Source: a virus
UHGV virus genome: UHGV-1421865
Reading direction: 5' to 3' (one strand)
DNA length: 64,000 bases
Part shown: positions 2,126 through 62,594 of the stretch, piece after piece
Layout of the letters: each line of letters starts with the position of its first letter
Position numbering within the stretch: the first letter of the stretch is position 1
Notes under the pieces: generated by a model
Told to the model about the DNA's origin: nothing
Seen by the model: the letters and a program-made list of their open reading frames with translations, nothing else
Database searches by the model: none
Program-made: the position numbers and the translations under genes

Positions 2126-2192
2126 TTTTTAGATGGTTCTTATATATACAAAATAATAACGTAGTAGACTACAATTAGACTATACCAGAGTA

Positions 2193-8760: not shown

Positions 8761-8785
8761 TATAGTCTACTTATGAAACTGTGGA

Positions 8786-8872
8786 AAATCTCGCCTGTAT
8801 CGCGTTATTTTTCTTTAGCCTTAGTACTACTAAGGTCAACTAATTTGGACGCGATACGGACCAAATAAACGC
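8786..8872 (-). repeat. nested-palindromic repeat, copy B (hairpin module only, reverse orientation)
   Basis: Outer arms cctgtatcgcg / cgcgatacgg enclose inner hairpin agcctta-gtactac-taaggtc. Matches the reverse complement of module 2 of the other copies. Confidence 0.65.
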
Positions 8873-11365: not shown

Positions 11366-11397
11366 TACGTCGACTAAAATAATAACATCTAAAAATT

Positions 11398-11480
11398 TGC
11401 CCTGTATCGCGCTGTTTTTTGTTAAGGCTTGGAGTACCAAGGTCACTACATTTGGACGCGATACAGGACAAATATGGTAT
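11398..11480 (-). repeat. nested-palindromic repeat, copy C (hairpin module)
   Basis: cctgtatcgcg…cgcgatacagg outer stem of 11 bp. Inner hairpin aaggcttgg-agtac-caaggtc. Confidence 0.65.
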
Positions 11481-11587: not shown

Positions 11588-11705
11588 AAGTAACACCGTG
11601 TGGGGCACGTTGTGTGTGCCGTAACACTGTGCGGGACACGTTGTGTGTACCATCTTGATGCTTTGCATCAAATTGTTCACAAAGTGAACATAACTGATTT
11701 AGTCT
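11588..11705 (+). repeat. 'triple-hairpin' module with a tandemly duplicated first hairpin
   Basis: Consecutive triloop hairpins cgtg-tggg-gcacg (x2, ~30-nt tandem duplication), gatgc-ttt-gcatc and gttcac-aaa-gtgaac. Near-identical to 26578..26652. Confidence 0.65.
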
Positions 11706-26231: not shown

Positions 26232-26382
26232 CTGATTTTGTGTGGTTTCTGTTTTGCGTACTGGTACGTAAATATGTAACGTCCTCATAAAGGTACTTTA
26301 GAGGCCCTCTGTCGCGTCAAAACTAGTTAGGCTTGGTATGTGTAAGCCTCAACAAAAACAACGCGATACGGGGCAAATTTTT
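26232..26382 (+). repeat. nested-palindromic repeat, copy D (full: 5' module + hairpin module)
   Basis: ctgattttgtgtggtttctgttttgcgtactggta…aaaggtacttt + ctctgtcgcgt…taggcttggtatgtgtaagcct…acgcgatacgg. The inner stem shows compensatory change (gacctt/aaggtc in other copies becomes aggctt/aagcct here). Confidence 0.7.
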
Positions 26383-26479
26383 GGACGTTTTGAATGCAAT
26401 AGATTCTGTTGTAGCATATCTACAAATAAGAACATGCTTTGTACTATTTTGGTCTACTTTCGATAGTTTGTGTTTCGTA

Positions 26480-26668
26480 TAAGTACATACAAATACCTAA
26501 CATCGTCATAGAGGCACCATATCTCGTCTGTATCGCGTCCAAATGTAGTGACCTTAGTAACTCTAAGGCTAAAGAAAAATAACACCGTGTGGGACACGTT
26601 GTGTGTACCATCTTGATGCTTTGCATCAAATTGTTCACAAAGTGAACATAATGCGACACAGGAGAGAT
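26480..26668 (+). repeat. nested-palindromic repeat, copy D' carrying the triple-hairpin module inside its outer stem
   Basis: …acatcgtcatagaggcacc + ctgtatcgcgtcc…gaccttagtaactctaaggct + caccgtgtgggacacg / gatgctttgcatc / gttcacaaagtgaac + …atgcgacacagg. Confidence 0.65.
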
Positions 26669-26698: not shown

Positions 26699-27148
26699 AT
26701 GAACGAACGATTAAAGATTACATCTAATTCTAAATCAGCGGTACTGAGACCTAAATCTAAAAATGAACTAGAACAACTAATACAGCAAGAGTTGGAACGT
26801 CAAGGCCAGGATGCTGACTTGAATCATATCGATACATCACTGATTACAGACATGTCAGCATTGTTTGCTAATTATGGTACTATTACTATTAGAAATATCA
26901 AAATCGACGAATGGGACGTCAGTAATGTGACCGATATGGAGCACATGTTTAGTTTGTGTGAAAAATTCAACTGCGATCTTTCCCATTGGAACACTTCTAA
27001 TGTCACGAATATGAAATACATGTTCTATAGTTGTGAAAATTTTTATTCCGACTTACGAGGTTGGGACGTATCTAATGTGAGAACGTATATAAAATTTGCC
27101 GATTTATGTTCATCGTCATTTGTTAAAAAGATACCGAAGTTCAAATGA
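26699..27148 (+). CDS. DUF285-repeat paralog family member
   Basis: 'ERLKITSNSKSAVLRPKSKNELEQLIQQELERQGQDADLNHIDTSLITDMSALF'. Confidence 0.7.
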   Translation: MNERLKITSNSKSAVLRPKSKNELEQLIQQELERQGQDADLNHIDTSLITDMSALFANYGTITIRNIKIDEWDVSNVTDMEHMFSLCEKFNCDLSHWNTSNVTNMKYMFYSCENFYSDLRGWDVSNVRTYIKFADLCSSSFVKKIPKFK

Positions 27149-27166
27149 CGTGAGTAAATCAACGGA

Positions 27167-27205
27167 AGTGCCTCAACAGATTTGTAATTGATCTGTTGAG
27201 GCACT
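27167..27205. terminator. bidirectional terminator hairpin between convergent genes
   Basis: 15-bp perfect inverted repeat agtgcctcaacagat…atctgttgaggcact. The stem sequence recurs at 34105..34138. Confidence 0.55.
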
Positions 27206-27236
27206 TATATATTTAATATGTAAATTTAATACAATA

Positions 27237-27929
27237 TCATTTGAATTGAGGTTGTAGCTGCGGATTAGATTTCATCTTGGGGCAGTTCTTGAACATATCT
27301 CCATGTGTCCATACTTTTCGTACATCCCAACTGGATAAATCAGACTCAAATTTTTTACAATACATAAACATACCGTACATATCTTTGACCTTTGAAACAT
27401 CCCAAGTAGACAGATCAGACTCGAACTTAAAACAATGGTCAAATGTTTGAGCCATGTTTGTTACTTTCGATACGTTCCACTTAGACAAATCAGATGTAAA
27501 TTTTTTACAATCTAAAAACATGCCGCCCATATTGGTAACGTTACTGACGTCCCACTCAGAAAGGTCACAGTTGAATTTTGAACAACCGTGGAACATACTG
27601 TCCATGCGTCGTACATTCGACACGTCCCAAGTAGAAAGATCAGAATTGAATTTGCCACAGCCCATGAACATCTCAGACATTTCTTGTACATTAGATGTAT
27701 CCCAGTCGTCGATTTTGATATTTCTAATCTCAAGCTGAGAAAACAAAAATGACATGTCTGTCATCAACGATGTATCAATGAAGTTCAAGTCGGCGTCCGG
27801 ACCTTGTCGTTGTAGCTCTTGTTTTATGATAGGTCGTATTTCTTCGTACGTCGTAGGTTTGGGACGGTATAAAGGTCTAGTCTTAGACGTGATCTTTATT
27901 CGTTCTGTGATGTATTGTTGTATACTCAT
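27237..27929 (-). CDS. DUF285-repeat paralog family member
   Basis: N-cap 'MSIQQYITERIKITSKT…QGPDADLNFIDTS'. ~6 repeats. C-tail 'CPKMKSNPQLQPQFK'. Confidence 0.75.
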   Translation of the reverse strand: MSIQQYITERIKITSKTRPLYRPKPTTYEEIRPIIKQELQRQGPDADLNFIDTSLMTDMSFLFSQLEIRNIKIDDWDTSNVQEMSEMFMGCGKFNSDLSTWDVSNVRRMDSMFHGCSKFNCDLSEWDVSNVTNMGGMFLDCKKFTSDLSKWNVSKVTNMAQTFDHCFKFESDLSTWDVSKVKDMYGMFMYCKKFESDLSSWDVRKVWTHGDMFKNCPKMKSNPQLQPQFK

Positions 27930-27946
27930 TTACTAGCTGGTACTTA

Positions 27947-28654
27947 TTAGTTTTTGAATTTTGGTTGTAGCTGTGGATTGGATTCCATCTTAGGACAATG
28001 CTTAAACATTTGTGAATGTGTTAGTACATTCGAAACATCCCAACCGGACAAGTCAGATTCAAAATTAGGACATTCACGGAACATATTGTTCATATTTTCA
28101 ACTTTTGAAACATCCCAACCAGACAAATCAGATTCAAACTTGGAACAACTGTGAAAAGTCTCATTCATCGCGGTTACCTTCGAAACATCCCAACCAGACA
28201 AATCAGAATTGAAATTATCACAATCAGCAAACATTGCTTGCATGTCTTCTAATTTAGAAACGTTCCAATGAGATAGGTCAGTGTTGAAGCTAGAACAGGC
28301 ATAAAACATGCTATTTGTATTCCATACTTTTGAAACATCCCAACGAGATAGATCGCAATTGAAATTATCACAACTAGCAAACATGTCACGCATAGTCATT
28401 ACATTATGTGTGTCCCACTCGTCAATTTGGATGTTTCTTATATCGAGGTCTTCAAATAATGCAGACATGTCATAAATCTTAGATGTATCGATATGGTTCA
28501 AATCGGCATCAGGACCTTGCTCTTCTAACTCTTGTTCTATGATAGACCGCAGCTCATTTTTACTTTTTGGAAACAGTGTACGTTCTGTTTGTTTAAGAGA
28601 TCGTGAATTTGATGTTATCTTTAATCGTTCTGTGATGAAATTTTGTAGACTCAT
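27947..28654 (-). CDS. DUF285-repeat paralog family member
   Basis: N-cap 'MSLQNFITERLKITSNS…'. C-tail 'CPKMESNPQLQPKFKN'. Confidence 0.75.
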   Translation of the reverse strand: MSLQNFITERLKITSNSRSLKQTERTLFPKSKNELRSIIEQELEEQGPDADLNHIDTSKIYDMSALFEDLDIRNIQIDEWDTHNVMTMRDMFASCDNFNCDLSRWDVSKVWNTNSMFYACSSFNTDLSHWNVSKLEDMQAMFADCDNFNSDLSGWDVSKVTAMNETFHSCSKFESDLSGWDVSKVENMNNMFRECPNFESDLSGWDVSNVLTHSQMFKHCPKMESNPQLQPKFKN

Positions 28655-28663
28655 ATTTGTATA

Positions 28664-29482
28664 TTATATAGTATTTGAATTGAAGAAATAGTCCGGCGAA
28701 TGTTGGCTCTTAATCCATTCTTCTATCTTATCTATCTCCGACTCTGCGCGCTGTGCGAAAGCGTCGTGATTAAGCGTAATACTACCAGGTAGTTTGTAAT
28801 CGAACGTGCCCAGTATTGTCGACATGGATCTGAGACCTAAGGCGACACAGTATCTAAAGAAGTAGTGACTTTTATACAAGTCTTGTAGTCTACATCTTAT
28901 GTAACAATGTATAATAAGATTAGAACCGTTTAATTCACCGAGCAACGATAACACATTACTATAGTTATTGTAATCAAAAGTAATAGGGTATTCCAGTACA
29001 CTTTGGTACGTACTAATCTCGTAAAGTGTTGCGATAGAGTCCATTAGGTTATATCCCATCTGTTGATTACCGTTTACCCCGCTACTGTAACCTGACATAC
29101 CGTAACCACCAAACGACGCGTTATTGTTTAGTACCATTCGTTCTAATGAGAAATCTCCTCGCATGTGGTAGTTGCTCTGGTCTGTTTTATATACACCGAA
29201 TACAGATACGATTCGTTCCGGTAGAGTAACTAGCTTGTTAAGTCCACATTTTGTTACCTCGCTGTACGGTAAGAAATAGTAGCGTTCTTCGACGGCATTA
29301 TCGTAGTTTTCATAGAAATAGTCGGCGGCTTGTAGTATTAAACTCGGAATCGCGGCAGCCGGGACCGGTAACGGTAATGCACAAGACTGTGTTAGTTCTT
29401 GCACGATACGTTGAATAAACTTATAGTCTATCTGATCCTCTATGTTCTGTTGTGTTTTATCGCATTCGTTAATAGTGTTCAT
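28664..29482 (-). CDS. hypothetical protein embedded in the paralog array
   Basis: 272-aa ORF, unrelated to the DUF285 family. Confidence 0.45.
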   Translation of the reverse strand: MNTINECDKTQQNIEDQIDYKFIQRIVQELTQSCALPLPVPAAAIPSLILQAADYFYENYDNAVEERYYFLPYSEVTKCGLNKLVTLPERIVSVFGVYKTDQSNYHMRGDFSLERMVLNNNASFGGYGMSGYSSGVNGNQQMGYNLMDSIATLYEISTYQSVLEYPITFDYNNYSNVLSLLGELNGSNLIIHCYIRCRLQDLYKSHYFFRYCVALGLRSMSTILGTFDYKLPGSITLNHDAFAQRAESEIDKIEEWIKSQHSPDYFFNSNTI

Positions 29483-29491
29483 TTCGTTGTG

Positions 29492-30295
29492 TTATATCTT
29501 ATTACGTCTAGCTTTCGGTCTCAACTTAGCGTTATCGTACATTTTAGGACATCCTTTGAATATACTGTTTTTATTTACTTTACCGACATGTAAGTCAGAT
29601 AAGTCCCAACCGGACAGGTCCGACTCGAATACCTTACAACCTTCGAACATACCAGTGATATTAAATGTACCACGCATATCCCATCTAGAAAGGTCTGAAG
29701 TAAATTTATAACAGTTCTTAAATGTTTGTCTAAAATTAGTTGTCTTTGATACATTCCAGTCGGACAGGTCGCTTTCAAAGTTTATGCAGTTATAGAACAT
29801 ATTTTCCATACTTGTAACATTCGATACGTCCCATTTAGATAGATCAGAATTGAATTTGACACAACTAAAAAATGTACCAAATAATCCGGTAACCTTAGAC
29901 ACATCCCATCTTGAAAGATCACTATTGAACTTAATACAATTATAGAACATAAGTTTTATATCTGTTACATTACCAGTGTCCCAACGAGATAGGTCTGCGT
30001 TGAAATTTCTACATTCTTCGAACATACCGAACATATCTGTTACATTACCAGTGTCCCACTCGTCTATTTTGATGTTACCTACATTTTTATAAGCAAACAA
30101 ATTGTTCATATCCGTGACCTTAGATACGTCGATATGGTTTAAGTCAGCATCGGGACCTTGTGCTTCTAATTCGTCTTCTATCATCTCAATAAGTTCTGAC
30201 CTGTCTTGGGGAAACAACGTGCATTCTGTTTGTTTAAGTGATCTTGTCTTAGAAGTTATTTTAAGTCGTTCTGTGATGAATTTTGATAGTGACAT
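29492..30295 (-). CDS. DUF285-repeat paralog family member
   Basis: 'MSLSKFITERLKITSKTRSL…'. 7-8 repeats. C-tail variant 'CPKMYDNAKLRPKARRNKI'. Confidence 0.75.
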   Translation of the reverse strand: MSLSKFITERLKITSKTRSLKQTECTLFPQDRSELIEMIEDELEAQGPDADLNHIDVSKVTDMNNLFAYKNVGNIKIDEWDTGNVTDMFGMFEECRNFNADLSRWDTGNVTDIKLMFYNCIKFNSDLSRWDVSKVTGLFGTFFSCVKFNSDLSKWDVSNVTSMENMFYNCINFESDLSDWNVSKTTNFRQTFKNCYKFTSDLSRWDMRGTFNITGMFEGCKVFESDLSGWDLSDLHVGKVNKNSIFKGCPKMYDNAKLRPKARRNKI

Positions 30296-30333
30296 TTTTG
30301 TTAGTTATATTTTTTGAAACAAATAACTCAACG

Positions 30334-31185
30334 CTATGTGTTGTCAAATTTAGGATGAAGCTCCCGTTCAAATTCCATATTAGGACACTCGGCAAACATA
30401 TTATCATGTTTAATAACATTAGAAACGTCCCACATCGACAAGTCAGACCTAAAATTAGAACATCCTCTGAACATCCAACGCATCTCCGTTACATTCGATA
30501 CGTTCCATCCTGATAAATTGGCGTCGAACACCCTACAAGATACAAACATACCATACATATCCTTTACTTTTGAAACATTCCACTTAGATAGTTCGCTATT
30601 GAAATTTCTACATTCATAGAACATGTGTGACATGTTCGTCACATTTGAAGTGTCCCATATTGAAAGATCTGAATTGAATTTTTTACAGTTATAGAACATA
30701 CTCTTCATTTTAGTCACATTAGAAACGTCCCAACCGGACAAATTAGATTTGAATGAATCACAATTATCAAACATCCAACGCATATCTATTACATTCCGTG
30801 TGTCCCAATGTGATAAATCGCAATTGAACGCTCTACAACCTTCGAACATAGCATACATATTCGTCACATTCCTAACATCCCAACCTGACAAGTCACAATT
30901 GAACTTTCTACATTCTCGAAACATACCCTGCATATTCGTCACATTAGAGACATCCCACTGGTCGATTTTGATATTTCCTACATTAACCTTGACCTGTGGG
31001 AATAAATCTCTCATATTTGTAATACCAGAGACATCTATATGGTTCAAATCAGCATCCGTACCTTGTTGGAATAGTTCTTGTTTTATGATAGTTAGAAGCT
31101 CAGATTTTGTTTTAGGCTTCGGTCTATATAATTGGGTATCAGACGTAATCTTTAGACGTTCTACAATATATCTTTGAAGTGACAT
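30334..31185 (-). CDS. DUF285-repeat paralog family member (longest in the cluster, ~9 repeats)
   Basis: 'MSLQRYIVERLKITSDTQ…'. C-tail 'CPNMEFERELHPKFDNT'. Confidence 0.75.
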   Translation of the reverse strand: MSLQRYIVERLKITSDTQLYRPKPKTKSELLTIIKQELFQQGTDADLNHIDVSGITNMRDLFPQVKVNVGNIKIDQWDVSNVTNMQGMFRECRKFNCDLSGWDVRNVTNMYAMFEGCRAFNCDLSHWDTRNVIDMRWMFDNCDSFKSNLSGWDVSNVTKMKSMFYNCKKFNSDLSIWDTSNVTNMSHMFYECRNFNSELSKWNVSKVKDMYGMFVSCRVFDANLSGWNVSNVTEMRWMFRGCSNFRSDLSMWDVSNVIKHDNMFAECPNMEFERELHPKFDNT

Positions 31186-31191: not shown

Positions 31192-31965
31192 TCATTTGAA
31201 TTTAGGTTGAAGTTGGCGATCAGCACGCATCTTAGGGCAGTTATTAAACATTTGCGAATGTGTTTTTACTTTCGAGACATCCCACCCCGATAAATCAGAC
31301 TCGAAAATTTTACAATCACTAAACATCTCGCTCATATTTGCCACATTTGAAACATCCCAACTAGATAAATCTGATTCGAATTTTATACAACCTTCGAACA
31401 TAGCATACATATTCGTCACATTACTGACATTCCAACTAGATAAGTCTGATGTAAAACTCCTGCAGTAAAGAAACATCTTACTCATATTTTCTACATTGGA
31501 CACTTGTGAAGCCCATTTAGACAGATCAGATTCGAATTTATTACAGCTACTAAACATTCCCCTCATATTTGTAACATTAGAGACATTCCATTTAGAAAGA
31601 TCTGAGTTGAATTTATTACAATTCGAGAACATGCCTTCCATATTTTCAACCCTTGATACGTCCCAACTAGATAAATCGGCAGTGACATAAAAACAGTGCA
31701 TAAACATTCCCTTCATATTTGTAACATTAGAAGTATCCCAATCGTCTATCTTTATGTTCTTTATACCGTCTATACCCTTAAATAGTTCAGACATATCTGT
31801 AATCTCTGATGTATCGATAAAGTTCAAATCAGCATCTGGACCTTGTCGTTCTATTTCGGCCTTTATTATATCTATAAGATCTTCTTTTGTAGTAGGTCTC
31901 AGTACCGCTGATTTAGTATCGGACGTAATCTTTAGACGTTCGTTGACAAAATTTGAAAGTGACAT
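31192..31965 (-). CDS. DUF285-repeat paralog family member
   Basis: 'MSLSNFVNERLKITSDTKSAVLRPTTKEDLIDII…'. C-tail 'CPKMRADRQLQPKFK'. Confidence 0.75.
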   Translation of the reverse strand: MSLSNFVNERLKITSDTKSAVLRPTTKEDLIDIIKAEIERQGPDADLNFIDTSEITDMSELFKGIDGIKNIKIDDWDTSNVTNMKGMFMHCFYVTADLSSWDVSRVENMEGMFSNCNKFNSDLSKWNVSNVTNMRGMFSSCNKFESDLSKWASQVSNVENMSKMFLYCRSFTSDLSSWNVSNVTNMYAMFEGCIKFESDLSSWDVSNVANMSEMFSDCKIFESDLSGWDVSKVKTHSQMFNNCPKMRADRQLQPKFK

Positions 31966-31969
31966 TGTA

Positions 31970-32734
31970 TTATCTAAATTTGTTATAAGCCTGTTCTAAA
32001 CGAGTATCGTACTTATTTTGTTTATAAGACGGTCCGTTGTATCGTTTGGCAAAACCGACCCAATCTTTCTTTTTAAGGCAGTTTATCATTCCTGAATTCT
32101 TAATGAATTCGCCGAACAGATCTAATTGTTTGGTCTCGGAATGACACATTTTGTTATATAGGTCTTCCGGTGACGTACAACCACACAGTTTATAGTTGTT
32201 TCCCATTATTTGAAACAGTCCGTACGATGCGGATGCAAAAGCGGCTTCTCTGTTTATCTCCAACGCACGCACCAGTCGATTGTATTCTATAACACCGCTT
32301 TTATAGTGTTTCGTCGTCCATGTTTTATATAAGATGTCTTGGTTGTCTTTATTAAGACACTTTTCCGGCACTATTTTACGACTTATAAGTTCACGCCAAA
32401 AGACATGTCCTTCGAATAGACTCTTTATTTGTCCGGACGGTAAGAAACCCGAACCTGCCGATTCCACTGTCTTTACCGCTTTAATAACGGCCGGTTCGAC
32501 ACCGATACTTTTAGCAACTCTACTGTATGCAGTGTCTGAAATACCTGTTTTTAGTTTTAGTATAGTCGCAGGCCCTGCAATACCGTCTACAGTAAGTCCA
32601 GAAGCTCGTTGAAACGCCTTGACATATTCTGTTGTCACAATACTGAAATTTCCGTCTATTGTAATAGGATAACCTTTGTCTACTAATAATTCTTGGAGAT
32701 ACTTTACATTGTCTCCTTTATCGCCTACTTTCAT
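31970..32734 (-). CDS. cell-wall hydrolase: N-terminal peptidoglycan-binding domain + C-terminal N-acetylmuramidase (DUF3380-like)
   Basis: PG_binding_1-like 'VKYLQELLVDKGY…DGNFSIVTTEYVKAFQRASGLTVDGIAGPAT'. C-terminal 'ASYGLFQIMGNNYKLCG'. Confidence 0.65.
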   Translation of the reverse strand: MKVGDKGDNVKYLQELLVDKGYPITIDGNFSIVTTEYVKAFQRASGLTVDGIAGPATILKLKTGISDTAYSRVAKSIGVEPAVIKAVKTVESAGSGFLPSGQIKSLFEGHVFWRELISRKIVPEKCLNKDNQDILYKTWTTKHYKSGVIEYNRLVRALEINREAAFASASYGLFQIMGNNYKLCGCTSPEDLYNKMCHSETKQLDLFGEFIKNSGMINCLKKKDWVGFAKRYNGPSYKQNKYDTRLEQAYNKFR

Positions 32735-32758
32735 TGTATTTGCTTTATATAATATCGA

Positions 32759-33460
32759 CTAAAATAGTCTATATACGACCCCGACACCGATAGTTGGCAT
32801 CACCCGACCGTCGTGTCCTATACCGACACCTAAGAACGGTCCTACACCGAATCGTTTTTGCTTAGGTCGAGCCATTTGGAAGCCGTCGATGTTATTTACT
32901 TTTATATAAGGATTGTTTGACGATACATAGATGCGATTGTTCTTGTCCATCACAACATTGTAATCGAAATAGACTTCATTTTTTGTTATTTGTACGTTCA
33001 AAGAATCGTTATAATAACTTGTAGTACCTTCCAGTGTTCTGTATTTGTCGTTAAAACTAAATTGACGACTAAAACCACTCCGTTCCGATTCTTGTATCTT
33101 ATATACGGTATCTATAACGGGAAGATAAACCGTATTTTCTGTTCTGACAGCCGACGTAACACTACTTTGTTTTACTTTCATGTTCTTTATCTCGGTTTTA
33201 AGCTGTTCTAAATAACCTTTTAATTTATTTATGTCTTTTTCTGTAAATCCCTGTTTTGTAGCGACCGATGTACCCGAACGACTCTTGTAGTAGCGAACAG
33301 TGTCCTGTACCGCCGCAAGATTGTTCTTGTATATGCCTTCGTTATTAGAACATGTATTAACCGACATATTAAATGCCGTCAATAGCGTTAGTATAATACT
33401 AATATATATCAAATGATACATTTTAGAAAATCCGGAACGGGTGGTTTTAGTGTCTGTCAT
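32759..33460 (-). CDS. membrane-anchored protein (N-terminal TM, Gly-rich C-terminus)
   Basis: 'MYHLIYISIILTLLTAF' and C-terminal '…FGVGPFLGVGIGHDGRVMPTIGVGVVYRLF'. Lies between two PG hydrolase genes and is a possible lysis accessory. Confidence 0.4.
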   Translation of the reverse strand: MTDTKTTRSGFSKMYHLIYISIILTLLTAFNMSVNTCSNNEGIYKNNLAAVQDTVRYYKSRSGTSVATKQGFTEKDINKLKGYLEQLKTEIKNMKVKQSSVTSAVRTENTVYLPVIDTVYKIQESERSGFSRQFSFNDKYRTLEGTTSYYNDSLNVQITKNEVYFDYNVVMDKNNRIYVSSNNPYIKVNNIDGFQMARPKQKRFGVGPFLGVGIGHDGRVMPTIGVGVVYRLF

Positions 33461-33474
33461 GGTGTGTTTTTAGT

Positions 33475-33954
33475 TTAGATAGTGTCTATCGTCTTCTTTA
33501 GTCTATTGTAGACCTTGCTCAATTCGTGTTCGTACGCTTTATGTCCGGCGTATCTACGACCAGACTTACCGGTATAAGAACGTAATAGATGCTGTGATGT
33601 TTTAGAACCCGTTAAATAGTAGGTTTTTACAACACGAATATAGTCGCATATAGACGCTTCTATACTAGAATATGTCTTATATATACCGAATAAGGAATTT
33701 CTCGAACGACCGATACCTGTTTGACCGTGTTTTGTTTCAAGTTCGGCCTGTGCCAACGCAAGGTAGATGTCGAAGTCGTTTTTAGAACATTCTCTTATAA
33801 GGATATTCCTATATTCTACATTAGTAATTCTCGCATCGTCTTTTCGTATCTTGTTGAGATACTCGAGTAGCGTGGTCGATTTAGATTGTAGTTGAATACA
33901 AAATAAGCATACTACCAAGACGACGATTGTTTTAATTGTGTTTTTTATGTGCAT
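33475..33954 (-). CDS. FlgJ-type glucosaminidase-domain protein with signal/TM anchor
   Basis: 'YLALAQAELETKHGQTGIGRSRNSLFGIYKT' resembles the mannosyl-glycoprotein endo-beta-N-acetylglucosaminidase motif (AQAxLESGWG…NNLFGIK). N-terminus 'TIVVLVVCLFCIQL'. Confidence 0.55.
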   Translation of the reverse strand: MHIKNTIKTIVVLVVCLFCIQLQSKSTTLLEYLNKIRKDDARITNVEYRNILIRECSKNDFDIYLALAQAELETKHGQTGIGRSRNSLFGIYKTYSSIEASICDYIRVVKTYYLTGSKTSQHLLRSYTGKSGRRYAGHKAYEHELSKVYNRLKKTIDTI

Positions 33955-34104
33955 TACAAAAATGGCATACTTCTGTTAAGCACACAGGTACTACAATGTC
34001 GGTATTACATTTAATAATCTGACAGTATATAGTAGACTTGTAAATGTACTTATACTTTATTTGTCAAACTACTAAACTATTTTTTGTAAGTACAATATAA
34101 ACTA

Positions 34105-34138
34105 AAGCCTCAACAGACTTATAAATCTGTTGAGGCTT
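34105..34138 (-). terminator. terminator hairpin
   Basis: aagcctcaacagactt-ataa-atctgttgaggctt. Shares its stem core with 27167..27205. Confidence 0.5.
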
Positions 34139-34153
34139 AGTAATTATTCTGCA

Positions 34154-35023
34154 TTAGTAGTCTTCCTCTTCATCCTCGTCATAAGTTACTTTTGAAAAAT
34201 CAGGCATGTTTTTCTTTTTCATACTCTTACATTTATCAAGCATACCATCAATACTACGTACATCCATTAGATCCCACTTCGATAAGTCAGTATCAAGTTT
34301 TTCACAACCGTAAAACATACTGGTCAATTCTATTGCACTTGCAATATCCCATTTCGATAGATCACAATTGAGGTTCTTACACATATAGAACATATAACCC
34401 ATATAAGCTACCCTTCTAACATTCCATTTGGAAAGATCAGAATTAAAGTTTACGCACCGACTAAACATACCGTGCATATTTTCTACTTTCGACACGTCCC
34501 ATTTAGATAGGTCTGAGTTAAATTTTTGGCAGGAGGCAAATAGACTGTGCATATTTTCTACTTTCGAAACATTCCAAGCTGACAAGTCAGATTCGAATTC
34601 GTGACAAGCAAAGAACATTTCGGTCATTGAAATAACATTCGACACGTCCCATTTCGAAAGGTCTGATTTAAATTTATAACAATTGCAAAACATCTCTTGC
34701 ATATAAGTTACCTTAGAAACGTCCCAACTAGATAAGTCAGCATTGAAATTCTTACAATCTTCAAACATGTATGACATATTAGTGACGTTAGAAGTGTCCC
34801 ACTGGTCGATTTTGATATTTCTTATATTCAATTTATTAAACAACCAAGCCATATCCGTGATCTTAGACGTGTCGATAAAGTTCAAATCGGCGTCAGGACC
34901 TTGTTCTTTTAGTTGCTCTACTATTAGCTTACGAAGTTCTTTTATATTCTTAGGCCTATTCTTATTGCCGAAAAGTGAACCAAAAGATAATTTCTCCACT
35001 ATATAATTTGATAGTACTTCCAT
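34154..35023 (-). CDS. DUF285-repeat paralog family member (long, acidic C-terminus)
   Basis: N-cap 'LRKLIVEQLKEQGPDADLNFIDTSKITDMAWLF'. ~8 repeats. C-terminal 'KCKSMKKKNMPDFSKVTYDEDEEEDY'. Confidence 0.7.
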   Translation of the reverse strand: MEVLSNYIVEKLSFGSLFGNKNRPKNIKELRKLIVEQLKEQGPDADLNFIDTSKITDMAWLFNKLNIRNIKIDQWDTSNVTNMSYMFEDCKNFNADLSSWDVSKVTYMQEMFCNCYKFKSDLSKWDVSNVISMTEMFFACHEFESDLSAWNVSKVENMHSLFASCQKFNSDLSKWDVSKVENMHGMFSRCVNFNSDLSKWNVRRVAYMGYMFYMCKNLNCDLSKWDIASAIELTSMFYGCEKLDTDLSKWDLMDVRSIDGMLDKCKSMKKKNMPDFSKVTYDEDEEEDY

Positions 35024-35046
35024 CTTTTATGTTTTGTGATTATATT

Positions 35047-35162
35047 TTTTATATACGCTTGTTCTAAACGAGTATCGTACTTATTTTTTGTTTATAAGAC
35101 GGTCCGTTGTATCGTTTAGCAAAACCGACCGAATCTTTCTTTTTAAGACAGTTTATCATTCC
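35047..35162. repeat. ~115-bp duplicate of the 3' end of the muramidase gene (31988..32102), 90% identical
   Basis: Direct comparison of the two segments. In both places it lies immediately 'upstream' of a DUF285 gene start. Confidence 0.8.
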
Positions 35163-35235
35163 ACACATCGTTACTACATTTAATAATCTGTAACGAATTC
35201 TATCTACAGTTCCATTTTATACCACCATCGAAACC

Positions 35236-35418
35236 CTTAGAGAATCTCTCCTGTATCGCATTATGATACATACAACGTGCCCCACACGGTGTTATTTTTC
35301 TTAACCTTACACATACTAAGGCTGAATCGTCCGGCCGCGATACAGGACGAATATGGTATCTTTATGGACGTGTTATGATTCTACTGTAGGCTGTATAAAA
35401 CAGAAACGTTGAAAATAG
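35236..35418 (-). repeat. nested-palindromic repeat, copy E (reverse orientation, with single cgtg-tggg-cacg hairpin inserted inside the outer stem)
   Basis: cctgtatcgcat…acaacgtgccccacacggtgtt…ccttacacatactaaggct…gcgatacagg…then the reverse-complemented 5' module. Confidence 0.65.
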
Positions 35419-35576
35419 TATAAAAAATAAGTTGTACCGAATGTCACCACTCAGTACAACTCTTTATTTGTGTACCACTGTACACTTCCCATTCTCATCT
35501 TCTCTCTTATTTAATATAGTCTATTATAACAACAAAATCACATTTTTGCTACACTATAAATGTACGATATTCAAAC

Positions 35577-35729
35577 GTACAAAAATCTGTCCTCTAACGC
35601 ACGATTTTTATTTGACCTTAGAGTACCAAGGTCAGTGCATTTGAGTGCGTCAGAGAGCCTTAAAAGTGCCAAAGAATCGATTCTACGTTTGTACATACCA
35701 GTACACAAAACAGAAACCATCGAAATCAG
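35577..35729 (-). repeat. nested-palindromic repeat, copy F (reverse orientation, full)
   Basis: Reverse complement matches 'ctgatttcgatggtttctgttttgtgtactggta…ggcacttttaaggctctctgacgcactcaaatgcactgaccttggtactctaaggtcaaataaaaatcgtgcgttagagg'. Track ORFs 35560..35814 and 35571..35777 are probably spurious. Confidence 0.7.
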
Positions 35730-35736
35730 TACAAAA

Positions 35737-36402
35737 TCACGGTTTATAACAAACAAATGTTCTCGATTCCATCTCATTTGCCCACGCGGGTATAACCCGT
35801 CCGTGTTGTTCTAACGCATCGCCTTCGTACAGGAATTCACCTACTCTGTATTCTTTTATATCGACAAAACCCATTGTACGCAGCATCTGTATTATCGTAG
35901 GGCAGTCGTATATCGAAAGATGACCCCACATGTGCATGAAATTATTGATGACGACAGATTTCGGTAATGTCTCAGTAGTATTAAAGAATGTATTATAAAT
36001 CCCTCCGTAAAATTTCGAATGAAACTCAATATATCGCCGGTTGTTTTCAGTGTCGGAATTGTTGTATAAATCGATAAGAAATTCCATTGTAGGACAGGTA
36101 AGAACAAAAGTGCCGCCTTGTTTTAAGGTTCTATGGACTTCACAGAGCATATTGATCTGTCTGGGCAAGTCGAGGTGTTCGAACATGTGTTCCGAAAAGA
36201 CAATATCGAAATAATTGTCTATATAAGGGAACTTTTTAGTCGCGTCTAAGAATTCTACACCGTCAAGAGACGGTTCTAAGTCGGTGTTTATCCAACCGTC
36301 AAGCGGTGTCTTACCGCAGCCTATATTTAGCCTATTTTGCATCGAATCTGGGTATTGTTCGTTGGTTGTTGTATTTGGTAGACTGCCCTCGTTTAATAAC
36401 AT
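35737..36402 (-). CDS. class I SAM-dependent methyltransferase
   Basis: 'LNIGCGKTPLDGWINTDLEP' (motif I) and 'FDIVFSEHMFEHL'. The likely true start is the internal Met near 36342. Confidence 0.7.
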   Translation of the reverse strand: MLLNEGSLPNTTTNEQYPDSMQNRLNIGCGKTPLDGWINTDLEPSLDGVEFLDATKKFPYIDNYFDIVFSEHMFEHLDLPRQINMLCEVHRTLKQGGTFVLTCPTMEFLIDLYNNSDTENNRRYIEFHSKFYGGIYNTFFNTTETLPKSVVINNFMHMWGHLSIYDCPTIIQMLRTMGFVDIKEYRVGEFLYEGDALEQHGRVIPAWANEMESRTFVCYKP

Positions 36403-41341: not shown

Positions 41342-41488
41342 ACAGTTTCCGTTTCGCGCACTGGTATGTTGAATCCTAACATCGTCATAAAGGCACTTTT
41401 AAGGCCCTCTAACGCACTCAAATGCACTGACCTTATACATACTAAGGTCAAAGAAAAATCGTGCGTTATAGAGCAAATTTTCTAAGGT
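41342..41488 (+). repeat. nested-palindromic repeat, copy G (full)
   Basis: agtttccgtttcgcgcactggta…acatcgtcataaaggcacttttaag + ccctctaacgcac…gaccttatacatactaaggtc…gtgcgttatagag. Track ORF 41461..41658 is probably spurious. Confidence 0.7.
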
Positions 41489-42033: not shown

Positions 42034-42200
42034 GACGGTTTCTGTTTTGCGTACTGGTAGACACAAACCTATTTGACCTCATTACCTCGGTAACGTCCTC
42101 ATAAAGGCACTTTAGAACTCCTCTGTCGCGTCCAAATACACTGACCTTGGTACTATCAAGGCTAGAAGATTTTAACGCGATACAGGCGAGATTTTCTTTG
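42034..42200 (+). repeat. nested-palindromic repeat, copy H (full)
   Basis: gacggtttctgttttgcgtactggta…acgtcctcataaaggcactttag + ctctgtcgcgtcc…gaccttggtactatcaaggct…acgcgatacagg. Confidence 0.7.
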
Positions 42201-42210
42201 GTTTTACAAC

Positions 42211-47570: not shown

Positions 47571-47715
47571 GACGGTTTCTGTTTCTGGTACTGACGTGTA
47601 AATATCTGACGTCCTCGTAAAGGCACTTTTAAGGCTCTCTAACGCACTCAAATGTAGTGACCTTACCAACACCAAGGTCAAAGAAAAATCGTGCGTTATA
47701 GAGCAAATTTTTAGT
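47571..47715 (+). repeat. nested-palindromic repeat, copy I (full)
   Basis: gacggtttctgtttctggtactgacg…acgtcctcgtaaaggcacttttaag + ctctctaacgcac…gaccttaccaacaccaaggtc…gtgcgttatagagcaa. Track ORF 47541..47762 is probably spurious. Confidence 0.7.
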
Positions 47716-47808
47716 AGTTTTGATATACACAGTAGGTAGACATAAAAAGACAGTCGAGACACTGTAATAAAACAATATCTCGACTGTTGAAATATGAGTA
47801 TGTAAAGA

Positions 47809-57424: not shown

Positions 57425-58195
57425 TCAAGCAAATTTAGGTTTCATTTTTGGCTTCATCTTAGGGCATTTATAAAACATTCGTGACTTGTCTGTCACATTC
57501 GATACGTCCCAACCGGATAAGTCAGTATCTAGACTAATACAATTGTAAAACATATAGCTCATATTTTCTGCATTGGACGTGTTCCAGGTGGACAAATCAG
57601 TATCTAAACTACTACAGCCATAAAACATGTGTGACAAGTTTATTGCATTGCTGATGTCCCATTTTGATAGATTAGAATTGAATTTTGTACAATCACTGAA
57701 CATCCTGACTGTGTTTGTCACACTACTAACATCCCAATCAGATAAGTCACTGTTAAAACTTCGACAACCATAAAAAATATAAGTCATGGTTTCGACATTT
57801 GATGTATTCCAATTTTCTAACCCTTTACCTTCAAAATTCATACAATTATTGAACATACCACGCATGTTTTTCACATTGGACACTCGTGTCCCCCAATCAG
57901 ACAAATCGACATTGAATTCTTTCTGCTCCATAAACATGTAAGACATGTCTACAACATTACTAACGTCCCATTGGTCTATTTTGATATTTTCGATATGATA
58001 AACTCTAAACAAGTACGACATGTCCGTAATAAGAGACGTGTCGATATGGTTCAAATCGGCATCGGGACCTTGACGTTTCAATTCTTCTTCTATGATAGCT
58101 TTGAGTTCGTCTTTTGTTGTCGGCCGTATTAGTTCAAGTGGTTTAGACTTAGATGTAATCTTTAACCGTTCGTTCACGAAATTTGATAGTGACAT
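57425..58195 (-). CDS. DUF285-repeat paralog family member
   Basis: 'MSLSNFVNERLKITSKSKPLELIRPTTKDELKAIIEEELKRQGPDADLNHIDTS'. C-tail 'CPKMKPKMKPKFA'. Confidence 0.75.
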   Translation of the reverse strand: MSLSNFVNERLKITSKSKPLELIRPTTKDELKAIIEEELKRQGPDADLNHIDTSLITDMSYLFRVYHIENIKIDQWDVSNVVDMSYMFMEQKEFNVDLSDWGTRVSNVKNMRGMFNNCMNFEGKGLENWNTSNVETMTYIFYGCRSFNSDLSDWDVSSVTNTVRMFSDCTKFNSNLSKWDISNAINLSHMFYGCSSLDTDLSTWNTSNAENMSYMFYNCISLDTDLSGWDVSNVTDKSRMFYKCPKMKPKMKPKFA

Positions 58196-58909: not shown

Positions 58910-59599
58910 TCAGATATTGAATTTAGGTTTCATTTTAGGTTTCATCTTAGGACATTTATAAAACATGCGTGGCATGTATGTTACCTTGTCTACATTCCAG
59001 CCGGATAAGTCGCTGCTAAAATTACTACATTCATAGAACATGTACTTCATATCTGTGACCTTTGAAGTGTCCCATTTTGATAGGTCGCTATTGAAATTAC
59101 TACATTCATAGAACATTTCTGCCATGTCCGTCACATTACTGACATCCCAACTAGATAAATCATTATCTAAAGCACTACACCCATGAAACATCCCTTCCAT
59201 AGTTGTCACATTAGAAGTGTTCCATTTTGATAGGTCGCTATTGAAACTATTACAACCATCGAACATGTACCTCATATTAGTGACTTTTGAAGTGTTCCAA
59301 CGAGAAAGGTCACAATTGAATTTTATTTGACTCATAAACATGCCGGCCATGTTCGTCACATTGCTGACGTCCCAATCGTAGATTTTGATGTTTCCAATAA
59401 AAACACTATTAAACAAATACGACATGTCGGTTATCTTCGACGTATCGATAAAGTTCAAGTCAGCATCTTGACCTTGTCGTTCTAATTCCTCCTTTATTAT
59501 GCCTTTTAGTTCGTCTTTCGTTTTGGGTACTAGTTTTTCCAAAGGTTTAGAATTAGACGCAATCTTTAATCGTTCTGTGATGAAATTTGAAAGTAACAT
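58910..59599 (-). CDS. DUF285-repeat paralog family member
   Basis: 'MLLSNFITERLKIASNSKPLEKLVPKTKDELKGII…'. C-tail 'CPKMKPKMKPKFNI'. Confidence 0.75.
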   Translation of the reverse strand: MLLSNFITERLKIASNSKPLEKLVPKTKDELKGIIKEELERQGQDADLNFIDTSKITDMSYLFNSVFIGNIKIYDWDVSNVTNMAGMFMSQIKFNCDLSRWNTSKVTNMRYMFDGCNSFNSDLSKWNTSNVTTMEGMFHGCSALDNDLSSWDVSNVTDMAEMFYECSNFNSDLSKWDTSKVTDMKYMFYECSNFSSDLSGWNVDKVTYMPRMFYKCPKMKPKMKPKFNI

Positions 59600-59638
59600 A
59601 TAAATTTAACTATATTTGTTGAAACAAATAACTCAACG

Positions 59639-60404: not shown

Positions 60405-61127
60405 TTATTTGAATTTCGGTTGTAAATCGTCTGTCATTATATTCTTTTTACCGAAGAAATTTTGGTGTAGTCTAACACGGGCAACATTCCACCCAGACAA
60501 GTCTTGTTTGAATTCCCAGCATCCTAAAAACATACCCTCCATGTCCGTCACATTAGAGACGTCCCATGAAGATATAGGCGCGTTAAATTTCTTACAATTA
60601 TGGAACATGTACTTCATGCTTGTTACGTTAGATGTGTCCCAATTTTCTAAACCTGTTCCTTTGAATTTTCTACATCCAGAAAACATCCCATACATATCGT
60701 CTACTTTACTAGTGTCCCAACCAGACAAATCTCCGACAAAATTTTTACACCCTTCAAACATGTATACCATGCGTGTTACGTTAGATGTGTTCCAATTTTC
60801 TAAACCTTCACCTTTGAAGTTCTCTTGTCCTGCAAACATGTTTTGCATAGTAGTGACCTTTGATGTATTCCACTGGTCGATTTTGATATTTCCTATTTCA
60901 AGCCAGTTGAACAAACTAGACATGTCGGTTATTTTTGATGTGTCGATATGGTTTAGATCCGCATCGGGACCTTGATGTCTTAGTTCTTTTTCTATCAACG
61001 AACATAACTCCTCTCTTGATTCAGGTACCAGTATTAATGATCTACTATTAGAAGTAATCTTTAATCGTTCTGTGATGAATGTTGAAAGTGACATTGAAAT
61101 TCTTTTATTCTTATATGTAAAAATCAA
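60405..61127 (-). CDS. DUF285-repeat paralog family member
   Basis: 'MSLSTFITERLKITSNSRSL…'. C-terminal '…DDLQPKFK'. Confidence 0.7.
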   Translation of the reverse strand: MIFTYKNKRISMSLSTFITERLKITSNSRSLILVPESREELCSLIEKELRHQGPDADLNHIDTSKITDMSSLFNWLEIGNIKIDQWNTSKVTTMQNMFAGQENFKGEGLENWNTSNVTRMVYMFEGCKNFVGDLSGWDTSKVDDMYGMFSGCRKFKGTGLENWDTSNVTSMKYMFHNCKKFNAPISSWDVSNVTDMEGMFLGCWEFKQDLSGWNVARVRLHQNFFGKKNIMTDDLQPKFK

Positions 61128-61898: not shown

Positions 61899-62594
61899 CT
61901 ATTTTTTAACAGTAGGTTTCATTTTCATCTTCATCTTAGGACAGTCTTTGAACATCCACTTTCTATAGGCTGCTGCTTTCTGAATATCCCAACCAGACAA
62001 GTCTTGTTCAAGAGATGTACATCCCCTAAACATAGATGTCATGTCTCTAACCTTACTAGTATTCCATCTCGAAATATCAGCATTGAAATCTGAACAATGT
62101 ACAAACATCGTCGACATCCATGCAACATTCGACACATTCCAATTTTCTAAACCGGTACCTTCAAATTTCTTACATCCAGAAAACATAGAGATCATATCTG
62201 TAACATTGGTTACGTCCCACTCAGACAAGTCTGGGTTTAATTTCTTACACCCAGCAAACATAGAAACCATATTAGTAACATTTGAAATGTCCCATGTCTC
62301 AAATCCACTACCGACAAATTCAGAACAATGCAAAAATGTACCGTGCATGTTTGTTACCTTAAACGTGTTCCATTTGTTTATTTTAATGTTTCTAATAGTA
62401 AGATTTTCGAACAAATACGACATATCGGTAATTTCAGATGTGTCGATAAAGTTCAGGTCGGCATCCGGACCTTGACGTTCCAGTTCTTGTTCTATCAGTA
62501 CACGTAGCTCTTTTCTCGTATTAGGTCTTATTGTTGCCGATTTCGTATTCGATGTGATCTTTAGTCGTTCACTAACAAAATTTTGTAGACTCAT
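61899..62594 (-). CDS. DUF285-repeat paralog family member
   Basis: 'MSLQNFVSERLKITSNTKSATIRPNTRKELRVLIEQELERQGPDADLNFIDTS'. C-tail 'CPKMKMKMKPTVKK'. Confidence 0.75.
   Translation of the reverse strand: MSLQNFVSERLKITSNTKSATIRPNTRKELRVLIEQELERQGPDADLNFIDTSEITDMSYLFENLTIRNIKINKWNTFKVTNMHGTFLHCSEFVGSGFETWDISNVTNMVSMFAGCKKLNPDLSEWDVTNVTDMISMFSGCKKFEGTGLENWNVSNVAWMSTMFVHCSDFNADISRWNTSKVRDMTSMFRGCTSLEQDLSGWDIQKAAAYRKWMFKDCPKMKMKMKPTVKK

What the first reader, a model, noticed from the sequence alone, without database searches (positions are those of the whole stretch)
31988..35162. Recent segmental duplication: 3' end of the muramidase gene copied next to another paralog
The last ~115 nt of the PG-binding/muramidase gene (31988..32102, encoding the C-terminal '…NGPSYKQNKYDTRLEQAYNKFR') recur at 35047..35162 as a non-coding remnant with ~90% identity. 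In both places the segment directly abuts the start codon of a DUF285 paralog (31192..31965 and 34154..35023). This indicates that at least one paralog was generated by duplication of a gene plus flanking DNA. The homologous 5' ends of the paralogs (…cgttctgtgatgaaatttgaaagtgacat, seen 9 or more times) provide recombination substrates. This is direct evidence that the family expands by ongoing recombination.
Basis: seen in the sequence. Interest (0 to 1): 0.55.

Follow-up and report, generated by a model that had tools for sequence, protein, structure and literature searches.

The report
Dead endolysin fragment marking a recombination scar
A 106-base non-coding leftover of the phage's cell-wall-cutting (endolysin) gene lies in front of a DUF285 repeat-protein gene; it is a scar of recombination in a fast-rearranging part of a ~200-kb gut phage, not evidence that this DUF285 gene was recently duplicated.

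Summary
The repeat is real. Window 31989..32092 (3' end of the N-acetylmuramidase gene) matches 35057..35162 at 100/104 bases, with one 2-nt insertion that breaks the frame. The second copy is non-coding.

The "gene plus flank was duplicated" reading fails.
- The two adjoining DUF285 genes are about 69% identical in DNA and at most 50% in protein. They are not sister paralogs.
- Identity falls from 97% to under 65% within about 10 nt at the 3' edge of the copy.
- DUF285-B has orthologues (85-86% aa) at the same position in all eight in-group relatives, and none of them has the long copy.

New anatomy: the copy is fused on its left to a 28-nt fragment of the lysis cassette's upstream region. 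That fragment sits where outgroup phages begin their only lysis cassette. The copy's right end runs into an older muramidase-like tail, shared in full by the four D_x-carrying lineages and at its 3' end by all in-group relatives.

Dating with dS (0.20-0.39 to relatives) makes the 104-nt core 3-6 times younger than the split from those relatives.

Best reading: an old relic of a gutted lysis-cassette copy whose muramidase part was later renewed by ectopic recombination or gene conversion. This is an ordinary kind of scar, with modest interest.

Side finding: a 95-nt structured intergenic repeat, 10 copies in the window.

The parts
35057..35162 (-). Copy B: non-coding relic of the muramidase 3' end (core). 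It has a 2-nt insertion at 35088-35089 and a W-to-S change.
   Evidence: It matches 100/104 to 31989..32092. Among 11 sampled lineages it is found only in the window and L017. The RNA fold z-score is -0.28 and there is no Rfam hit.
31989..32092 (-). Copy A: the matching stretch inside the functional muramidase gene (codons G215 to about A249).
35024..35056 (-). Older muramidase-like tail plus the leader of DUF285-B. The four D_x-carrying lineages share it in full and all in-group relatives share its 3' part.
   Evidence: window versus L018/L022 shows 2 mismatches and 1 indel in about 33 nt. L018/L022 keep a further 15-22 nt of muramidase-like sequence to the left. Position 102 carries the outgroup state.
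35163..35190 (-). Fragment of the lysis cassette's upstream region (P_G), CAGATTATTAAATGTAGTAACGATGTGTG, fused directly to the relic.
   Evidence: The 16-mer is exact and 21/23 bases match the window's own P_G (shuffle p<0.002). Its left flank is collinear with the outgroup intergenic region.
33955..34021 (-). Intact P_G upstream of the glucosaminidase-like gene (16-mer at 34006..34021). It is the left edge of the conserved block P_G-G-S-M in all in-group relatives.
34154..35023 (-). DUF285-B (289 aa).
   Evidence: Pfam PF03382, E = 1e-91. Orthologues at 85-86% aa occupy the same slot in L022/L025/L031.
34105..34138 (.). Terminator-like hairpin after DUF285-B.
33475..33954 (-). Glucosaminidase-like gene (G), the first gene of the lysis cassette.
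   Evidence: PF01832.
32759..33460 (-). DUF6549/DUF6808 protein (S), the middle gene of the cassette.
31970..32734 (-). PG-binding/N-acetylmuramidase gene (M, 254 aa).
   Evidence: PF11860, E = 1e-62, and PF01471.
31192..31965 (-). DUF285-A (257 aa), starting 4 nt after the M stop codon.
   Evidence: Its 5' ~380 nt continue the muramidase alignment to relatives (M plus this stretch 82-84%, 89% over G-S-M plus this stretch).
35191..35736 (-). Intergenic region U between the methyltransferase gene and the P_G fragment. It is collinear with the outgroup. It holds two copies of a 95-nt structured repeat (35575..35668, 35268..35358) and a terminator hairpin (35429..35462).
35737..36402 (-). Methyltransferase gene bounding the variable slot.

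Best explanation
The 106-nt segment is a dead fragment of the endolysin (N-acetylmuramidase) gene. It has no function of its own and is a scar of recombination.

**Layout.** Reading in the coding direction (minus strand), the order is:
1. methyltransferase gene
2. intergenic region U
3. a 28-nt fragment of the lysis-cassette leader (P_G)
4. the last ~106 nt of a muramidase gene
5. an older muramidase-like tail
6. DUF285-B and its terminator
7. the complete cassette P_G-glucosaminidase-DUF6549-muramidase
8. DUF285-A

Items 3 and 4 are the two ends of a lysis cassette whose ~1.9-kb interior is missing. Item 3 sits where outgroup phages start their single cassette.

**Inferred history.**
- Old step: an ancestor of the in-group carried muramidase sequence in front of DUF285-B. 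A second cassette then supplied the function and the first was gutted.
- Young step: in the window's lineage the muramidase-derived part was overwritten or re-copied from a functional muramidase allele of the same clade, most simply the gene 3 kb downstream. The likely mechanism is gene conversion or unequal homologous recombination. The right end of the transferred tract falls in the residual homology around TCGTTTAGAA.

**Status of each step.**
- Shown: the anatomy, the lineage distribution, the breakpoints and the relative ages.
- Inferred: the order of events and the recombination mechanism.
For: **Repeat and loss of coding capacity**
-.

**Sharp edges**
- On the left there is no muramidase homology beyond 35162 at DNA or protein level.
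- On the right, identity is 97% up to about position 101, then at most 65%.

**P_G fragment**
- It contains an exact 16-mer. In the window that 16-mer occurs otherwise only upstream of the glucosaminidase gene. About 0.13 matches are expected by chance even at up to 2 mismatches.
- It matches 21/23 to the window's own P_G, with no shuffle out of 500 scoring as high.
- Every relative has a single copy at the cassette edge.
- The U-to-P_G continuity matches outgroups L020 and L037, whose slot is empty.

**DUF285-B is an old resident**
- It has orthologues at 85-86% aa in the same slot. The best paralog within the window is only 50% aa identical.

**Distribution of tail and core**
- The tail is shared with L018, L022, L025, L027 and L031.
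- L018/L022 keep 15-22 further nt of an intermediate-type muramidase end.
- The long core is found only in the window lineage among 11 lineages.

**Dating**
- dS between the window's lysis genes and in-group relatives is 0.20-0.39.
- A neutral 104-nt copy as old as that split should differ from M at 12-24 sites. Four are seen, P = 6e-3 to 6e-7.
- The core carries in-group-type states. It differs from the outgroups at 23-27 sites, from the window's own M at 4, and from other in-group alleles at 6-8.

**A parallel case**
- A second short high-identity patch occurs at another paralog junction, about 30300-30346 versus 59600-59650. It is 95% identical against 50-70% in the gene bodies. Patchy exchange at gene boundaries therefore recurs in this array.
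Against: - The left homology available for a conversion tract is at most about 15 nt, which is short.
- The donor cannot be pinned down: 4 differences from the window's own M versus 6-8 from other in-group alleles is not significant on 104 nt.
- The old full-length relic is inferred, not observed. No sampled genome carries an intact second cassette or an undecayed intermediate.
- The short muramidase-like stretch in L018/L022 is only marginally significant on its own (E = 0.002-0.005). Its weight comes from its position.
- Phage lineages recombine with each other. For example, the D_x cassette is 94-97% identical across lineages whose DUF285-B differ by 23%. 'Shared by relatives' therefore need not mean 'inherited from their common ancestor'.
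Confidence: 0.6

Rival explanations
1. A recent segmental duplication copied the muramidase 3' end together with the adjacent DUF285 gene and so created one of the two paralogs.
For: The two copies are collinear with a DUF285 gene in the same orientation. BLAST joins the flank and gene into one 635-nt alignment.
Against: - The genes are 69% identical in DNA and at most 50% in protein, and are not sister paralogs.
- Both genes have positional orthologues in relatives.
- Identity steps from 97% to under 65% at the edge of the core.
- The relatives that carry DUF285-B lack the core.
Confidence: 0.05
2. An entirely recent, lineage-specific origin with no older full-length relic. One route is unequal crossover between the muramidase 3' end and the short muramidase-like tail upstream of DUF285-B. 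That would give a tandem duplication of DUF285-B plus the lysis cassette, followed by deletions of the redundant parts. The other route is a single replication template-switch that copied 28 nt of P_G and 104 nt of M.
For: - The core and the extra P_G piece occur only in the window lineage.
- The core is young.
- The two templated pieces lie in cassette order and orientation.
- Short homology exists at the right junction.
Against: - This route needs three events, or a complex switch.
- The left edge of the P_G piece coincides with the natural U/P_G boundary seen in the outgroups. That would be a coincidence under a deletion model.
- The P_G piece has 2-3 mismatches in 23-27 nt plus an indel, so it looks older than the core.
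- L025-type lineages also carry a decayed upstream P_G-like piece.
Confidence: 0.25
3. The segment is functional. It could be a promoter or 5' leader that drives or regulates DUF285-B, possibly capturing the lysis-cassette promoter. It could instead be the 34-codon ORF (35064..35168) or a structured RNA.
For: - The P_G fragment retains the conserved start of the cassette leader.
- The best sigma-70-like match in the region (10/12) lies at 35068..35039, just upstream of DUF285-B.
Against: - Promoter-like hits are fewer than in shuffles (9 against 14.9), and the host is probably Bacteroidota-like with different promoters.
- The segment is absent from all relatives, which express the same gene without it.
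- The frameshift and substitutions look neutral.
- The fold z-score is -0.28 and there is no Rfam hit.
Confidence: 0.07
4. Assembly artefact: a chimeric join caused by repeats.
For: The source is metagenomic and the region is rich in repeats.
Against: - An identical structure appears in a second assembly, with 1 difference in 20.7 kb.
- Seven contigs carry the same muramidase with the same neighbours.
- A 104-nt repeat at 96% identity is too short and too divergent to mislead assemblers with long k-mers.
Confidence: 0.02

Closest known systems
Gene fragments ('relics') at module junctions in mosaic tailed-phage genomes. This is the illegitimate and homologous recombination model of phage mosaicism, cited from general knowledge.
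   Same: A truncated, frame-broken piece of a neighbouring functional gene sits at a boundary between exchangeable modules. Its edges are sharp and its presence is lineage-specific.
   Different: Here both ends of one cassette (leader plus last gene) survive side by side. The relic also shows two age layers, which suggests a later homogenisation event.
Gene conversion between a pseudogene fragment and its functional paralog (concerted evolution).
   Same: A short tract is far more similar to the functional gene than neutral divergence allows. It is flanked by older sequence, and the likely donor lies 3 kb away in the same orientation.
   Different: The left flanking homology is almost nil. The direction and the donor are not proven.
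Hyperplastic regions and polymorphic internal-protein loci of T4-like phages. PMC3012670 describes diverse internal proteins that share only a capsid targeting sequence. PMC9026906 describes the L/I-X-E cleavage motif of gp21.
   Same: The phage is T4-like (gp13 and gp2 homologues). It carries an array of variable genes with a conserved N-terminal ~15 aa that contains [FY]-[IV]-x-E. Gene content changes quickly between relatives.
   Different: No evidence here shows that the DUF285 proteins are packaged or cleaved. The family is LRR-like (BspA/DUF285), not T4 internal-protein homologues. The resemblance of the N-terminus is a lead, not a test.
Multi-copy DUF285/BspA-like families in jumbo phages (Sphingomonas phage PAU, Aeromonas phages D3/LAh10, Lak phages).
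   Same: tblastn of DUF285-B finds 15 places in PAU and 24 in D3. The gp13-like protein's nearest cultured relatives include PAU, the Tenacibaculum phages pT24 and PTm1/PTm5, and the Chryseobacterium phages MA9V-1/MA9V-2.
   Different: Identity is only 25-40% aa. The window's phage group is uncultivated, from gut-type metagenomes, and is absent from INPHARED and IMG/VR at the DNA level.

Membership tests
Segmental duplication of a gene plus its flank | Two copies of the flank with high identity. | tested here: met
   100/104 identical plus a 2-nt indel.
Segmental duplication of a gene plus its flank | The adjoining genes show identity comparable to that of the flank. | tested here: not met
   About 69% in DNA over the collinear alignment. 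At most 50% in protein.
Segmental duplication of a gene plus its flank | The two genes are each other's closest paralogs, and the new copy is absent from relatives that lack the duplicated flank. | tested here: not met
   The best hits of DUF285-B are slot orthologues in relatives (85-86% aa). Relatives have the gene but not the core.
Pseudogene fragment / recombination relic | Clear homology to part of a functional gene, truncated, with a disrupted reading frame. | tested here: met
   It covers codons 215-249 only, has a +2 frameshift and has no ORF of 40 aa or more.
Pseudogene fragment / recombination relic | Not conserved in related genomes. | tested here: met
   Present in 1 of 11 sampled lineages.
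Gene-conversion tract | The tract is much more similar to the donor than neutral divergence of the surrounding homologous sequence allows. | tested here: met
   Four differences are seen against 12-24 expected, P = 6e-3 to 6e-7. The tail and P_G piece look older.
Gene-conversion tract | Pre-existing homologous recipient on both sides of the tract. | tested here: inconclusive
   A right-hand tail homology exists. The left side offers at most 15 nt before homology ends.
Gene-conversion tract | The donor is identified within the same genome. | tested here: inconclusive
   The window's own M is nearest (4 differences), but other in-group alleles are at 6-8.
Pfam PF11860 N-acetylmuramidase with PF01471 PG_binding_1 (source gene) | Profile match above the curated cut-off. 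| tested here: met
   211.7 bits against a cut-off of 22.3, and 55.5 bits against 23.
Pfam PF03382 DUF285 (flanking paralogs) | Profile match above the curated cut-off. | tested here: met
   303 and 217 bits against a cut-off of 25. There are 21 family ORFs in the window.
Known structured RNA (Rfam) or tRNA | Covariance-model or ARAGORN hit at the relic. | tested here: not met
   No hits in the window. The fold z-score is -0.28.
T4-type capsid-targeted internal proteins (considered for the DUF285 paralogs) | N-terminal propeptide cleaved after L/I-X-E by the prohead protease, with the protein packaged in the head. | not testable with these tools
   Only a motif resemblance: [FY]-[IV]-x-E at residues 6-9 in about 12 of the 21 window paralogs. 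The motif definition comes from PMC9026906.

The most novel reading that the evidence does not exclude
The relic could be one footprint of a cassette-shuffling regime. In that regime, conserved paralog 5' ends, gene-boundary patches and a 95-nt structured intergenic repeat would serve as recombination substrates. Together they would continually re-assort a family of 21 or more DUF285 (BspA-like LRR) genes. The conserved N-terminus ([FY]-[IV]-x-E-[RK]-L-K-I-T-S) resembles a T4-type capsid-targeting/cleavage signal, so the family might be packaged, injected effectors that diversify under host pressure.
Probability: 0.15. Interest if true: 0.7.

Novelty: new member of a known kind. Interest (0 to 1): 0.25.

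Why it matters
On its own the segment is a neutral scar. Its value is as a dated marker.
- It shows that short ectopic transfers between gene boundaries occurred in this phage lineage more recently than its split from all sampled relatives.
- It shows that the slot between the methyltransferase gene and the lysis cassette has been rebuilt repeatedly.
- It also corrects a tempting inference. High-identity flanks beside paralogs do not mean that the paralogs themselves are recent duplicates.

The wider context deserves more attention than the scar: a large, fast-turning-over DUF285 family in an uncultivated ~200-kb T4-like phage, plus an undescribed structured repeat.

Tried and rejected
- **Close relatives in public phage collections.** Megablast of the region against INPHARED phages found nothing. 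IMG/VR scans by protein and by exact 28-mer found no close relative.
- **DUF285-B orthologues.** The homologue search was swamped by repeat-containing proteins and returned no orthologues. I could not look for genomes with a muramidase directly upstream of a DUF285-B orthologue.
- **Extending homology leftward.** I tried to extend muramidase homology left of 35162 with tblastn and relaxed Smith-Waterman. There was nothing beyond noise.
- **Source of the sequence left of the P_G fragment.** I searched for a source of the 21-70 nt there and found none.
- **L025-type lineages.** I tested whether they retain the same P_G|M junction. The alignments were at noise level. Only their decayed x/P_G piece is significant.
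- **Tail allele typing.** I tested whether the tail is more outgroup-like or more in-group-like. The result was equivocal, 20 against 18.
- **Structured RNA or tRNA.** Rejected.
- **Sigma-70 promoter.** Not above the shuffled background.
- **PHROGs.** Gave no function for the DUF285 proteins.
Full report
**1. Observation**

The minus strand carries, in coding order:
- a methyltransferase gene (35737..36402)
- a 713-nt non-coding stretch
- DUF285-B (34154..35023)
- a terminator hairpin (34105..34138)
- a glucosaminidase-like gene G (33475..33954)
- a DUF6549/DUF6808 gene S (32759..33460)
- a PG-binding/N-acetylmuramidase gene M (31970..32734)
- DUF285-A (31192..31965), followed by more DUF285 genes

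The last part of M (31989..32092) recurs at 35057..35162. The match is 100/104 bases, with a 2-nt insertion in the second copy.

The second copy is non-coding. It is frameshifted, has a W-to-S change, has no ORF of 40 aa or more, and contains only a 34-codon ORF. It has no Rfam or tRNA hit and no unusual fold, z = -0.28.

A second assembly, L017, differs from the window by 1 base in 20,765 and has the same structure. Seven contigs carry the same muramidase with the same neighbours.

**2. The adjoining genes are not a duplicated pair**

- Along the collinear alignment, identity is 97% in the core. It drops to 65% or less within about 10 nt of the core's 3' edge and stays at about 69% through the DUF285 genes.
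- The closest proteins to DUF285-B are genes in the same slot of related phages (85-86% aa). The best paralog inside the window is only 50% identical, and DUF285-A is not among the top hits.
- The 5' ~380 nt of DUF285-A are orthologous to the gene that follows the muramidase in relatives.
- Both genes are therefore old residents of their positions.

**3. Relatives**

The phage is an uncultivated genome with contigs of roughly 190-230 kb. It is absent from INPHARED and IMG/VR at the DNA level. By its gp13-like protein it is distantly related to Tenacibaculum, Chryseobacterium and Sphingomonas PAU jumbo phages.

Muramidase cluster members let me fetch ten related lineages. The slot between the methyltransferase gene and G differs among them:

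| Lineage(s) | Slot content |
|---|---|
| Outgroups L020, L037 | empty |
| L018, L022, L034, L042 | an extra DUF285 gene (D_x) plus the DUF285-B orthologue |
| L025, L031 | non-coding DNA plus a full-length (290-aa) DUF285-B orthologue |
| L027 | non-coding DNA plus a truncated (213-aa) DUF285-B orthologue |
| window, L017 | non-coding DNA, the relic and DUF285-B |

- A sensitive BLAST with each lineage's own muramidase 3' end finds the long copy only in the window lineage.
- The 33 nt between the core and the DUF285-B start codon (the tail) is shared with the relatives.
- L018/L022 keep a further 15-22 nt of muramidase-like sequence (…ACATTCGTTTAGAAGAAGC…) with its own stop codon.
- Some muramidase sequence in front of DUF285-B therefore predates, or has been exchanged among, these lineages.

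**4. Left junction**

- Immediately left of the core lie 28 nt, CAGATTATTAAATGTAGTAACGATGTGTG.
- Their first 16 nt are identical to the start of the conserved leader (P_G), which lies 67 nt upstream of G. About 0.13 matches are expected by chance even at up to 2 mismatches. Overall, 21/23 bases match the window's own P_G, with no shuffle out of 500 as good.
- Every in-group relative has this 16-mer, exact or with one mismatch, once, at the left edge of the conserved block P_G-G-S-M. The outgroups have only a diverged homologue there.
- The window's region U is collinear with the outgroup's methyltransferase-to-G intergenic region right up to this fragment.
- The fragment therefore sits where an outgroup-type genome starts its only lysis cassette.
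- The relic thus consists of the first ~28-41 nt and the last ~106+ nt of a lysis cassette with about 1.9 kb missing between them.
- L025-type lineages carry a more decayed upstream copy of the x/P_G junction.

**5. Age**

- dS between the window's G, S and M genes and their in-group orthologues is 0.20-0.39.
- A neutral 104-nt copy made at that split should now differ from M at 12-24 sites. It differs at 4, P = 6e-3 to 6e-7. That places the core at roughly 0.17-0.33 of the depth of the split.
- The core carries in-group states: 23-27 differences from the outgroups, 4 from the window's own M, and 6-8 from other in-group M alleles.
- Of the 4 differences, one is a derived change in the functional gene (position 45). 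One is unique to the relic (position 32). One is polymorphic among lineages (position 15). One lies at the tail boundary and carries the outgroup state (position 102).
- The flanks look older. The P_G piece has 2-3 mismatches in 23-27 nt plus an indel, and the tail is shared with relatives. This gives a two-layer picture of an old junction with a young core.

**6. Mechanism (inferred)**

- Old layer: a cassette copy in front of DUF285-B lost its interior once a second copy supplied the function.
- Young layer: an ectopic, non-reciprocal transfer from a functional muramidase allele, most simply the gene 3 kb downstream. Its right end falls in the residual homology at TCGTTTAGAA. It could be gene conversion, or an unequal crossover followed by loss of redundant DNA.
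- The main rival is that everything is recent (crossover plus deletions, or template switching). It fits the lineage distribution. It needs more events, and it needs a coincidence at the natural U/P_G boundary.

**7. Support for 'ongoing recombination'**

Support comes from the comparison with relatives, not from the relic itself:
- The number and size of DUF285 genes after M differ in almost every lineage.
- L027/L028 invert the 267aa-gp13-230aa block.
- D_x is 94-97% identical across lineages whose DUF285-B differ by 23%.
- L031 and L042 show fragmented paralogs.
- A second short 95%-identical patch sits at another paralog boundary, about 30300-30346 versus 59600-59650, between genes that are otherwise 50-70% identical.

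**8. Comparison with known systems, and verdict**

The feature belongs to a known kind: a pseudogene fragment or recombination scar at a module boundary of a mosaic phage genome, with a probable conversion overlay. It fails the defining tests of a gene-plus-flank segmental duplication (see the membership table).

It is a new member of a known kind, with an interest of about 0.25.

The surrounding biology is more unusual:
- 21 DUF285 ORFs lie in 64 kb.
- Their conserved N-terminus is reminiscent of T4 capsid-targeting/cleavage signals (motif from PMC9026906; concept from PMC3012670).
- There is an undescribed structured repeat. Details are in the noticed-in-passing list.

Noticed in passing
window 2042-2136(+), 8778-8871(-), 11385-11479(-), 26294-26388(+), 26515-26606(+), 35268-35358(-), 35575-35668(-), 41394-41488(+), 42108-42202(+), 47624-47718(+): A ~95-nt intergenic repeat embedded in a ~170-nt conserved unit. 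Its predicted fold is a 13-bp outer helix enclosing an 8-bp hairpin, followed by AAATTTTT. There are 10 copies in the window and 45 in the window plus 9 related loci. In those copies 89% of cells are paired, against 26-44% when partners are slid, and 8 pairs show compensatory changes. The alignment is fitted to the model. The repeat is not in Rfam. Its orientation relative to flanking genes is mixed. Two copies lie in the intergenic region next to the relic.
   Followed up: partly
5' ends of the DUF285 ORFs, e.g. 27237..27929, 27947..28654, 29492..30295, 30334..31185, 31192..31965, 34154..35023, 57425..58195, 58910..59599, 60405..61094, 61899..62594 (all on the minus strand): About 12 of the 21 DUF285 ORFs start with M-S-L-x-x-[FY]-[IV]-x-E-[RK]-[LI]-K-I-T-S or a close variant; DUF285-B has MEVLSNYIVEKLSF. 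Six shorter paralogs begin just after this segment. The [IV]-x-E motif at residues 7-9 resembles the gp21 cleavage motif L/I-X-E and the ~10-aa capsid targeting sequence of T4 internal proteins (PMC9026906, PMC3012670). The phage has T4-like gp13 and gp2. This is only a lead.
   Followed up: partly
window ~30300-30346 versus ~59600-59650: A second short high-identity patch (95% in a 40-nt window) covers the 3' end of one DUF285 gene plus the spacer upstream of the next. It lies between paralog pairs whose bodies are 50-70% identical. This is the same mosaic pattern as the main finding.
   Followed up: partly
L027 11948-14376 and L028 5596-7929, compared with window 27135-30295: The block 267aa-gp13-like-230aa is inverted in these relatives compared with the window and the other lineages. 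This is consistent with recombination between inverted DUF285 paralogs.
   Followed up: no
L018 7118-7813, L022 7003-7731, L034 6998-7735; L042 7002-7729 (split into 143 + 79 aa): An extra DUF285 gene (D_x) lies in the slot. It is 94-97% aa identical across lineages whose neighbouring DUF285-B differ by about 23%. That suggests recent horizontal spread of a cassette. It is already fragmented in L042.
   Followed up: partly
window 31966-31990 (muramidase C-terminus): The window's muramidase is 254 aa, ends in ...AYNKFR*, and has a 4-nt spacer before DUF285-A. All relatives have 255-256 aa (one 253-aa variant with an internal deletion), and all sequenced relatives end in ...AYNNYKLK* or ...AYSKYSTK* with an ATGA stop/start overlap. 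The M/DUF285-A junction has therefore also been remodelled in this lineage.
   Followed up: no
L031 10768-12642: Where other lineages have intact DUF285 genes after the muramidase, L031 has a run of short ORFs (68, 97, 191, 56 and 122 aa). These are apparently decaying paralogs.
   Followed up: no
window 26580-26651 versus 11622-11693: This is the highest-identity repeat in the window (72 nt, 97%). It is intergenic and adjoins copies of the structured repeat.
   Followed up: no
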